Assembly (NCBI RefSeq): GCF_003334305.1
Contig: NZ_QOWS01000002.1
DNA from: Escherichia coli
GTDB taxonomy: Bacteria; Pseudomonadota; Gammaproteobacteria; Enterobacterales; Enterobacteriaceae
Reading direction: 5' to 3' (one strand)
Length of the DNA stretch: 64,000 bases
This document shows positions 22,601-25,600 of the stretch, piece by piece (position 1 is the stretch's first letter; each line of letters starts with the position of its first letter). The position numbers were made by a program.

Positions 22601-25600
22601 AACCGTGTTGCCAGAACAATTTCATGGCCTTATCAAGCGCGGCATCCCTGTCGAACACTTTTGGGCGGCCACGGCTTTTTTTTACACATTGTGTTGAGTC
22701 AGTTGCCATGATGCCGTTGTACCTGGTGACTGTGAATGAAAGGTTATTATAAAAATAATCACCTCCGTTCACCAGTCCAGATCCCATAAAAATAATTGCT
22801 TTCTATTTAACTGAAATTTAAAGATTTTTAAATTAATTAATGATTGTTATAAAAAATATCTTGTATGTGATCCAGATCACATCTATCATTTAGTTATCGA
22901 TCGTTAAGTAATTGCTTGCGACGTCATTCATCTGCATAAGGCCACTATTATGAAAAACGTAAAAACCCTCATCGCTGCGGCGATTTTAAGCTCCATGTCA
23001 TTTGCCAGCTTTGCGGCTGTCGAAGTTCAGTCAACGCCAGAAGGCCAACAAAAAGTCGGTACAATCAGTGCTAACGCGGGGACAAATCTGGGATCGCTGG
23101 AAGAGCAGCTGGCGCAAAAAGCGGATGAGATGGGCGCAAAATCTTTCCGTATTACTTCTGTAACCGGTCCGAATACCCTCCATGGAACAGCAGTAATTTA
23201 TAAATAAGCATTAACCCTCATTAATGCCTGCTACTGCTGATTTTTTCCCCGCGACATGCCGTGTCGCGGGGAGTTTTTTATCCAGGATTTACAGAGTTTG
23301 TGGGCTCACTTGATGACGGCGGACATCCACCGGCATCCCGGAACGGACATCCATCACATGTTGCATCACTTCAGCGTCAGTTTGTGCTGCATCTTTAAAT
23401 GATTGCATTGCGCTATTCAGCGTAATTGGCAGCAGCTGCGGATCGTCATCAATCTTCTCTGACAGCGGCTGATGTACTTCAACCAGACGCGCACCGTTTG
23501 GTTCGGCAGAGACTTTTATCGGAGTGTTGATGATATTCACTTTGGTGCCTGGGGTGACCTGGCTAAAGAGTGTTTTGATATCGTCATCCCGCAGACGAAT
23601 ACAGCCAGAACTTACCCGCATGCCAATGCCGAAATCGGCGTTCGTACCGTGAAGCAAATAAACGCCGCCATAGGCCGCCAGACGAATCGCATGATGGCCC
23701 ATTGGGTTATCCGGTCCAGCCGGCACTACCGCAGGCAACTCAATTCCCTGTGCTTTATAACGGGCGCGGATGTTTGCCGTTGGCGTCCAGGTTGGGTTTG
23801 CACGTTTGTCTGAAACGGTGGTCACCATTGTCGGTGTCAGCGTGTCACCACCTAACTGACCAATACCTATTGGATACACGGTTACCGAATTTTTACCCGG
23901 CGGGTAGTAATAGAGACGCAGCTCCGCAATGTTGATCACAATGCCTTCGCGCGGCGCGTCTGGAAGTAGGGTTTGCAACGGGATCGTTAACACGCTGCCC
24001 GCGCGCGGTACGTAAGGATCAACGCCGGGGTTAGCCTGTAACAGAGCGAGAAAGCCGACGTTATATTTTTTGGCGATGGCTTCCAGAGAACCACCGTCAT
24101 TTTCCACCACATGAAATTTGTTTTCGCCAACCAGACGACTGCCCGCTGGCGGCAGCGGCCAGGTGTTGGCTTTTGCCGGTAGCGCCAGCGCCACGGCAGC
24201 GGCGAACGTAAAAAACGTTAGCCAGCGAGAAAAACGCGTTTTGATCATCACCAAAAATCCATAATAAATATAAGGTTATTGTAATAAACAGATAAGCCTG
24301 AATTATGGATGGTGACAGTGTCGGATAGTGCAGGGAAGTGCAAAGAATTTGTAAATGTTGCAGATGGGGGCGCAGAAACGCCCCCGATTTACCATTAAGC
24401 GATCGCGTTCTCTTCCAGTTCACGCATAAACTGGCGTACCCATTCGATACGCGTTTTCCGCTCACTCAAATCCTGAATAAATTTCAGGCGCGTCGGACCA
24501 TCAAGGCGGTAATGCTGCGGCTGTTTTTGCAGCAAACCAATCAACCAGGCCGGATTAACGTGATTCTTCTCGGCAAATTCGATCACCCCGCCTTTCTCAT
24601 TACCTTCCAGCTTCCTGATCCCCAGTTTCTGCGCTTGCTGGCGCAGACGGGCAACATCCAGCAGGATACGCGCCGGATCCGGCAGCAGGCCGAAGCGATC
24701 GATAAGCTCGACTTTGATCTCTTCCAGTTCGTTTTCCGTTTTGGCGCTGGCAATACGTTTATAGAACGACAAACGCGTATTCACGTCAGGAATGAAATCA
24801 TCTGGCAATAGCGACGGCATCCGCAGCTCGACTTCTGTTTGCTGGCTGGTGAGATCTTCCAGCGACGGCTCGCGTCCGGCTTTCAGTGCATCGACGGCGT
24901 TTTCCAGCAGCTCCATATACAGCGAGAAACCGATGGTTTCCATTGAGCCGCTTTGTTCTTCGCCAAGCAGTTCACCCGCGCCGCGAATCTCCAGATCGTG
25001 CGTTGCCAGCGCAAAACCTGCCCCGAGATCTTCCAGCGAGGCAATCGCTTCAAGACGTTTTTGTGCATCGGTAGTCATCGCTTTTGGATGCGGCGTCAGC
25101 AACCATGCATATGCCTGATGATGCGAACGTCCGACGCGACCGCGTAACTGGTGCAGCTGCGCCAGACCGAAGTGATCCGCACGTTCAATGATAATGGTGT
25201 TGGCTGTCGGGATGTCGATCCCGGTTTCGATAATGGTGGTACAAACCAGCACGTTGAAACGTTGATGATGGAAATCATTCATCACCCGTTCCAGTTCGCG
25301 CTCGCGCATCTGCCCGTGACCGATGGCGATCCGCGCTTCTGGCACCAGTTCTGCCAGCCGTTCGGCGGCTTTCTGAATGTTTTCCACATCATTGTAGAGA
25401 TAATAAACCTGTCCTCCGCGCAAAATTTCACGCAGGATCGCCTCCCGGACCACCAGGCTGTCATACTCACGGACAAAGGTTTTAACTGCCAGACGACGGG
25501 CGGGCGGCGTGGCGATAATCGACAGGTCACGCATTCCGCTCATTGCCATATTCAGCGTACGTGGGATCGGCGTTGCAGTAAGCGTCAGAATATCCACGTT

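What the first reader, a model, noticed from the sequence alone, without database searches (positions are those of the whole stretch)
22866..22881. Perfect TGTGA-N6-TCACA palindrome in the comR-bhsA divergent region
TGTGATCCAGATCACA is an exact match to the CRP core consensus and sits within ATGTGATCCAGATCACAT, about 76 bp upstream of the bhsA ATG. It could be a CRP site, the ComR (TetR-family) operator, or both. A perfect 16-bp palindrome is unlikely by chance in a 160-bp AT-rich promoter region.
Basis: seen in the sequence. Interest (0 to 1): 0.4.

Follow-up and report, generated by a model that had tools for sequence, protein, structure and literature searches.

The report
Known CRP site in bhsA promoter
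The palindrome is a real, very strong and already catalogued binding site for the global sugar-sensing regulator CRP, placed inside the core promoter of the E. coli stress gene bhsA where it should switch the gene off; the copper repressor ComR most likely uses a different palindrome 27 bp downstream.

Summary
The sequence TGTGATCCAGATCACA is at 22866-22881, 76 bp (centre) upstream of the bhsA ATG in the E. coli comR-bhsA spacer. It is not a perfect 16-bp palindrome: 7-bp arms (8 with the flanks) surround a non-symmetric CA. It matches the CRP core exactly. The same site is listed as a CRP ChIP-seq target (ycfQ/bhsA) in ETEC H10407, and EcoCyc/RegulonDB-derived tables list bhsA as CRP-repressed. 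In a matrix built from the other 106 published ChIP-seq sites it ranks first of 107. In 67 other Enterobacteriaceae loci the half-sites are kept while the central bases drift, which is the CRP information profile. The box fills the spacer between a conserved -35 (TTGACG in most species) and -10 (TATCAT), so bound CRP should exclude RNA polymerase. I found no evidence that ComR uses this palindrome. A different, nearly invariant palindrome (TTATCGATCGTTAA, 22894-22907) overlaps the predicted start site. In extended form it begins exactly 60 bp upstream of the ATG, where a review places the ComR site. Verdict: observation confirmed, CRP reading supported and already known, ComR reading unsupported. 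Low interest.

The parts
22866..22881 (.). CRP core site TGTGATCCAGATCACA (TGTGA-N6-TCACA). The 22-bp site 22863-22884 matches the consensus AAATGTGATCTAGATCACATTT at 18 of 22 positions.
   Evidence: Sequence. Only exact match in the window. Published CRP ChIP-seq target. Ranks 1 of 107 in a leave-one-out matrix. Half-sites conserved in all 68 spacers.
22869..22878 (.). Two Dam GATC sites inside the CRP box (22869-22872 and 22875-22878). The right-hand one is invariant across genera.
   Evidence: One GATC of the bhsA non-coding region shows time-dependent methylation in K-12 ZK126. I could not map which of the four spacer GATCs it is.
22861..22866 (+). Inferred -35 hexamer of the bhsA promoter. 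It is TTGTAT in E. coli. Most other species have TTGACG directly abutting the T of TGTGA.
   Evidence: alignment of 68 spacers plus Klebsiella. This is an inference from conservation, not a mapped promoter.
22884..22889 (+). Inferred -10 hexamer TATCAT (TATCAT or TATGAT in 57 of 68 spacers). The predicted start is near A22896, which puts the CRP box centre at about -22.5.
   Evidence: The spacer length is 17 (18 when counted from TTGACG). The start site is predicted, not measured.
22894..22907 (.). Second palindrome P2, TTATCGATCGTTAA, which matches the ideal palindrome TTAACGATCGTTAA at 13 of 14 positions. The extended 22-bp form spans 22890-22911. It is the candidate ComR (TetR-family) operator and overlaps the predicted start site.
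   Evidence: I1. Nearly invariant block. Present in 68 of 68 spacers, 49-57 bp upstream of the ATG. The extended form starts 60 bp upstream of the ATG, matching the review statement.
22837..22850 (.). Degenerate upstream copy of the P2 palindrome. It is TTAATGATTGTTAT in E. coli and TTAACGATCGTTAT in several genera. Its centre lies 57 bp upstream of the P2 centre, just upstream of the -35.
   Evidence: 54 of 68 spacers, constant 57 +/- 1 bp spacing; Klebsiella. Function unknown.
22950..23207 (+). bhsA (ycfR/comC), a DUF1471 outer-membrane stress protein. This is the gene controlled by the promoter.
   Evidence: NCBIfam BhsA equivalog, 137 bits against a cut-off of 90.
22077..22709 (-). comR (ycfQ), a TetR-family copper-responsive repressor, transcribed divergently from bhsA.
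   Evidence: The closest solved homologue is CifR.

Best explanation
The palindrome is a near-consensus binding site for cAMP-CRP. It lies in the spacer of the bhsA core promoter, between the -35 and -10 hexamers, centred at about -22.5. When cAMP is high (poor carbon supply), a CRP dimer occupies the box and sterically excludes RNA polymerase, so bhsA is repressed. When glucose is present, this block is lifted. Copper control by ComR is a separate input. ComR most likely binds the adjacent palindrome TTATCGATCGTTAA at the transcription start, and perhaps a weaker copy upstream of the -35. The result is the published CRP/ComR/bhsA feed-forward loop. Steps shown: the site exists, it is bound by CRP in vivo in ETEC (published), it is catalogued as CRP-repressed, and it is conserved with a CRP-like profile. 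Steps inferred: the promoter hexamers and the start site, the steric mechanism, and the assignment of ComR to the second palindrome.
For: There is an exact CRP core at 22866-22881, with 18 of 22 matches to the 22-bp consensus quoted. It is the only such match in 64 kb, against 0.04 expected. The identical sequence appears in the table of 111 high-confidence CRP ChIP-seq targets of ETEC H10407, labelled ycfQ/bhsA. bhsA is annotated as 'CRP-cAMP' regulated. It sits in the incoherent type-2 feed-forward class, in which CRP acts as repressor, after filtering by a cAMP dose-response microarray. One paper cites an EMSA of CRP on the ycfR upstream region. In a leave-one-out matrix the site scores 21.2 of a possible 21.7 bits and ranks 1 of 107. 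The next best hit in the window scores 12.0. All 68 comR-bhsA spacers carry a box with at most 2 core mismatches, 76-84 bp upstream of the ATG. The half-sites are conserved and the centre varies. The information profile correlates with that of CRP (r = 0.71, p = 0.002). The box is flanked directly by the conserved TTGACG and TATCAT/TATGAT hexamers. Both palindromes disappear together with bhsA in the four loci that keep comR alone, so they belong to the bhsA promoter. In Klebsiella, a DUF1471 paralogue is repressed by CRP through a footprint 49-85 bp upstream of its ATG, which is the same geometry.
Against: No measured bhsA transcription start was available to me. A published sequence-only prediction places a bhsA promoter further upstream (TTCACC-17-AATAAT at 22768-22796). 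That would put the box downstream of the start. Repression would still be expected, but by a roadblock. The in vivo binding data are from ETEC, not K-12, although the sequence is identical. The bases GA before TCACA are invariant across genera, which is more than CRP alone requires, so a second constraint on the right half is possible. The primary papers on ComR binding (Mermod 2012) and on the CRP EMSA (Zhang 2007) could not be read. ChIP-exo of tagged YcfQ/ComR found no peak anywhere in this spacer, so ComR occupancy of either palindrome in vivo is undocumented in what I could read.
Confidence: 0.82

Rival explanations
1. The palindrome is the ComR (TetR-family) operator, either alone or shared and contested with CRP, so copper and cAMP signals would converge on one 18-bp element.
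For: It is a two-fold symmetric element inside the promoter of the gene that ComR represses, next to the divergent comR gene. That is the usual place for a TetR-family operator. The right half GATCACA is more conserved than CRP binding alone requires.
Against: A different palindrome with unrelated half-sites (TTAACGA against ATGTGATC) is nearly invariant in 68 of 68 spacers and has a second copy 57 bp upstream. One helix-turn-helix is unlikely to read both motifs. The review statement '60 bp upstream of comC' fits the start of the extended second palindrome (22890). It does not fit this element, which spans 68-85 bp upstream. The central 4-6 bp vary freely among species. ComR ChIP-exo gave no peak here.
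Confidence: 0.08
2. CRP bound here acts mainly on comR, or on another bhsA promoter further upstream, rather than on the promoter inferred here. The effect on bhsA would then be indirect or a roadblock.
For: The database-derived feed-forward loop implies that CRP also represses comR. A sigma-70 SELEX paper and the consensus scan propose TTCACC-17-AATAAT at 22768-22796 as a bhsA promoter.
Against: The box lies about 135 bp upstream of the likely comR -10 (TATAAT on the minus strand at 22745-22750). It is lost together with bhsA in the lineages that keep comR and its proximal conserved block. The TTCACC hexamer is poorly conserved. By contrast, TTGACG/TATCAT flanking the box are conserved across genera.
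Confidence: 0.08
3. It is a chance palindrome in AT-rich DNA with no function.
For: Perfect inverted repeats with 8-bp arms arise in 6% of simulated spacers of this composition.
Against: An exact CRP core occurs in 6 of 20,000 simulations. The half-sites are conserved in all 68 loci across more than 15 genera, at a fixed position. CRP binding in vivo is published.
Confidence: 0.01

Closest known systems
Catalogued CRP site of the comR/bhsA (ycfQ/ycfR) divergent region (EcoCyc/RegulonDB; Haycocks et al. 2015 ChIP-seq, PMC4287617)
   Same: It is the same sequence in the same intergenic region. The published site TGTGATCTGGATCACA is the reverse complement of 22866-22881. CRP is recorded as a repressor of bhsA.
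   Different: Nothing differs. This finding is that site.
CRP acting as a repressor from a site overlapping the core promoter, for example the KP1_4563 DUF1471 gene of Klebsiella pneumoniae (PMC5521740)
   Same: The target is a DUF1471-family gene. CRP regulates it negatively. The footprint lies 49-85 bp upstream of the ATG, compared with 68-85 bp for the box here.
   Different: KP1_4563 is a paralogue in a fimbrial region and has no adjacent TetR-family regulator. Its site is not a perfect core match.
TetR-family operators in divergent regulator/target spacers (TetR-tetO, QacR IR1, CifR with two sites)
   Same: They are palindromic, they overlap the target promoter, and they lie next to a divergent TetR-family gene. 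ComR's closest solved relative is CifR.
   Different: The element that fits this description best is the neighbouring palindrome at 22894-22907, not the reported one. No ComR footprint was available to me.

Membership tests
CRP (cAMP receptor protein) binding site | A 22-bp two-fold symmetric site with a TGTGA-N6-TCACA core | tested here: met
   10 of 10 core positions match, and 18 of 22 match the full consensus. The site scores 21.2 of 21.7 bits and ranks 1 of 107 among ChIP-seq sites in a leave-one-out matrix.
CRP (cAMP receptor protein) binding site | Occupied by CRP in vivo or in vitro | not testable with these tools
   From the literature: a high-confidence CRP ChIP-seq peak in ETEC H10407 on the identical sequence, and an EMSA on the ycfR upstream region cited (primary paper not readable).
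CRP (cAMP receptor protein) binding site | Conservation follows the CRP information profile: half-sites constrained, centre free | tested here: met
   All 68 spacers have at most 2 core mismatches and a variable N6. Information content correlates with the CRP matrix, r = 0.71, p = 0.002. Orthologue scores are 13.6-21.2 bits, against a median of 13.0 for ChIP-seq sites.
CRP (cAMP receptor protein) binding site | Position relative to the promoter fits the recorded regulatory sign (repression) | tested here: inconclusive
   The box fills the spacer between the conserved -35 and -10, which predicts repression, as catalogued. However, the start site is inferred rather than measured, and another promoter has been predicted upstream.
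ComR / TetR-family operator | Palindrome overlapping the promoter of the regulated gene, next to the regulator gene | tested here: met
   This holds for the reported palindrome, but it holds equally for the neighbouring palindrome at 22894-22907, so the feature does not discriminate.
ComR / TetR-family operator | Bound by ComR and released by copper | not testable with these tools
   Mermod 2012 is not held. A review places the ComR site 60 bp upstream of comC. That fits 22890, the start of the extended second palindrome, and not 22865-22882. YcfQ ChIP-exo shows no peak in the spacer.
ComR / TetR-family operator | One recognisable half-site motif, repeated where the regulator binds more than once | tested here: not met
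   The repeated, conserved motif of the spacer is TTAACGATCGTTAA-like, with two copies 57 bp apart. The reported palindrome has unrelated half-sites (ATGTGATC).

The most novel reading that the evidence does not exclude
The CRP box sits between two copies of a TTAACGATCGTTAA-like palindrome whose centres are 57 bp apart: 22837-22850 and 22894-22907. If both copies are ComR operators, the sharp DNA bend made by CRP could bring two ComR dimers together. This would form a CytR/CRP-like or loop-like repression complex, so carbon status would set how tightly copper-responsive repression holds.
Probability: 0.08. Interest if true: 0.5.

Novelty: already known. Interest (0 to 1): 0.12.

Why it matters
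The finding adds little new. The site is already in the CRP regulon literature and databases, and bhsA is already described as sitting in a CRP/ComR feed-forward loop. This check adds three things. The site is the best-scoring of the 107 published ETEC CRP ChIP-seq site sequences. The site and its placement inside the promoter spacer are conserved across Escherichia, Salmonella, Citrobacter, Enterobacter, Klebsiella, Kosakonia and others. The ComR operator should be sought at the neighbouring invariant palindrome rather than here. That last point is useful for anyone designing ComR-based copper sensors or bhsA reporter constructs.

Tried and rejected
(1) I tried to read the primary papers: Mermod 2012, Zhang 2007 and Deng 2011. 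None is held, so the ComR footprint and the CRP EMSA are known to me only second-hand.

(2) I tried to map the K-12 ZK126 GATC with time-varying methylation (positions 1072523/4) onto one of the four GATCs of the spacer. The ZK126 genome is not in the collections. Calibration through yccS and W3110 coordinates gave no consistent offset. I abandoned this.

(3) I looked for lineages that keep bhsA but lack comR, to see which palindrome decays. Klebsiella turned out to have comR and the full architecture. E. fergusonii, reported to lack ycfQ, could not be fetched.

(4) The reverse case, comR without bhsA, was found in L064, L067, L078 and L079. It removes both palindromes, so it does not separate them.

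(5) A full-text search for either palindrome sequence found only a coincidental identical SyCRP1 site in Synechocystis and nothing for the second palindrome.

(6) An Rfam scan found nothing over the site.

(7) An FNR site was rejected. The half-sites are GTGA, not TTGA.

(8) A chance palindrome was rejected.

Full report
**Observation.** The window is E. coli chromosome. The local gene order is ndh, ycfJ, comR (22077-22709, minus strand), bhsA (22950-23207, plus strand), ldtC, mfd. TGTGATCCAGATCACA is at 22866-22881, and its centre lies 76.5 bp upstream of the bhsA ATG. The inverted repeat is ATGTGATC/GATCACAT, with 8-bp arms and a 2-bp centre (CA) that is not symmetric. So 'perfect 16-bp palindrome' is slightly overstated. 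With the RefSeq comR start the spacer is 240 bp, not 160 bp.

The match to TGTGA-N6-TCACA is exact. It is the only one in the 64-kb window, where 0.04 are expected. With one mismatch allowed, the window holds no more matches than chance gives. Palindromy alone is weak evidence. In Markov-1 simulations of this 31% G+C spacer, 6% contain a perfect inverted repeat with arms of at least 8. Only 6 of 20,000 contain an exact CRP core.

**What is already published.** Haycocks et al. 2015 list TGTGATCTGGATCACA, the reverse complement of this site, among 111 high-confidence CRP ChIP-seq targets of ETEC H10407, labelled ycfQ/bhsA. Westphal et al. 2016 annotate bhsA as regulated by CRP-cAMP. They also report that one GATC in its non-coding region changes methylation over time. 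Yang et al. 2018, working from EcoCyc and RegulonDB and filtering with a cAMP dose-response microarray, place bhsA in the incoherent type-2 feed-forward class. They state that CRP is the repressor in that class. This implies CRP represses bhsA, CRP represses comR, and ComR represses bhsA. Luo et al. 2017 cite an EMSA of CRP on the ycfR upstream region. They also show that a Klebsiella DUF1471 paralogue is repressed by CRP through a footprint 49-85 bp upstream of its ATG. The CRP identity of the site is therefore known.

**Strength of the site.** I built a symmetrised matrix from the other 106 site sequences in the ETEC ChIP-seq table. In it the site scores 21.2 of a possible 21.7 bits and ranks first of 107. 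The next best 16-mer in the window scores 12.0. The 22-bp site 22863-22884 matches the consensus AAATGTGATCTAGATCACATTT at 18 of 22 positions.

**Conservation.** A scan of one genome per species returned 80 comR loci. Sixty-seven of them have the complete divergent comR-bhsA pair, with spacers of 244-256 bp. Every spacer has a CRP-like box with at most 2 core mismatches, centred 76-84 bp upstream of the ATG. GTGA and GATCACA are essentially invariant, while the central bases vary (TCCAGA, CCTGGA, TGCGGA, CGCAGA, TGAAGA and others). The per-position information content correlates with that of the CRP matrix (r = 0.71, p = 0.002). Orthologue scores are 13.6-21.2 bits, above the median of ChIP-verified sites, which is 13.0. 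Klebsiella pneumoniae and K. aerogenes show the same arrangement. One feature goes beyond CRP's needs: the GA preceding TCACA is invariant. I leave this unexplained.

**Promoter context.** The alignment shows TTGACG in most species directly abutting the T of TGTGA. In E. coli this has decayed to CTTGTA/TTGTAT at 22860-22866. TATCAT or TATGAT lies at 22884-22889 in 57 of 68 spacers. The 16-bp CRP core therefore fills the -35/-10 spacer of a conserved sigma-70-type promoter. The predicted start is near A22896, which puts the box centre at about -22.5. This geometry predicts steric exclusion of RNA polymerase, which agrees with the catalogued repression. The start site is inferred. A sequence-only prediction in the literature, also returned by the consensus scan, places a promoter at 22768-22796, but its -35 is poorly conserved.

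**Where ComR probably binds.**
- A second palindrome, TTATCGATCGTTAA (22894-22907), matches the ideal TTAACGATCGTTAA at 13 of 14 positions. It sits in the most conserved block of the spacer and is present in 68 of 68 loci.
- Its extended 22-bp form starts at 22890, exactly 60 bp upstream of the ATG. [quoted passage not shown]
- A weaker copy of the same motif lies 57 +/- 1 bp upstream in 54 of 68 loci (22837-22850 in the window).
- The half-sites of this motif are unrelated to those of the CRP box.
- ComR's closest solved relative is CifR.
- In the four loci where bhsA has been lost and comR abuts ldtC, both palindromes are gone while the comR-proximal conserved block remains. Both elements therefore belong to the bhsA promoter. 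This fits the report that ComR does not autoregulate.
- A ChIP-exo study of tagged YcfQ found only three weak peaks elsewhere and none in this spacer, so in vivo ComR occupancy is undocumented in what I could read.

**Verdict.** The CRP interpretation is correct and already known. The ComR interpretation is unsupported, and ComR is more likely to bind the neighbouring palindrome. The residual novelty is the possibility that the CRP bend cooperates with two flanking ComR-type palindromes. I rate that as unlikely and untested.

Noticed in passing
window 22894-22907 (extended 22890-22911) and 22837-22850: A nearly invariant palindrome TTATCGATCGTTAA lies at the predicted bhsA start site. A degenerate second copy lies 57 bp upstream, with constant spacing in 54 of 68 species. 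Together they flank the CRP box and the -35. They are probably the ComR operator(s).
   Followed up: partly
window 22736-22758 and 22837-22856: A roughly 20-bp motif of the form AACGATC[G/A]TTATAAAAAT occurs twice in many species' spacers. One copy is next to the comR start, where its ATTATA reads as a perfect TATAAT -10 on the minus strand. The other is upstream of the bhsA -35. The comR-proximal copy survives in the lineages that lost bhsA.
   Followed up: partly
window 48794-48809: ATTGAACAGGATCACA is the third-best CRP matrix hit in the window (11.8 bits). It lies inside the 217-aa ORF at 48275-48928 (minus strand), upstream of the ORF starting at 49100. It is identical to the published CRP ChIP-seq site '(rluE)/icd'.
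   Followed up: partly
window 21350-21396 (ndh-ycfJ spacer): A published YidZ ChIP-exo peak (MG1655 1167473-1167519), labelled with nearest gene ycfQ, actually maps between ndh and ycfJ. It is not in the comR-bhsA spacer.
   Followed up: no
window 22875-22881: The right half of the box, including the GA before TCACA (GATCACA, which contains a Dam site), is invariant across 47 distinct orthologous sequences. The left half tolerates T/C/A at position 1 and C/T at position 6. This is more constraint than the CRP matrix predicts.
   Followed up: no
published CRP ChIP-seq table, outside the window: Several DUF1471-family genes are CRP ChIP-seq targets: yahN/yahO, ybiJ and bhsA, as well as KP1_4563 in Klebsiella. 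This suggests that CRP control is a family-wide habit of these small stress proteins.
   Followed up: no
L068/L082 and L071/L086: Kosakonia sacchari and K. arachidis each carry two comR-bhsA pairs. Both copies have the CRP box and the second palindrome.
   Followed up: no
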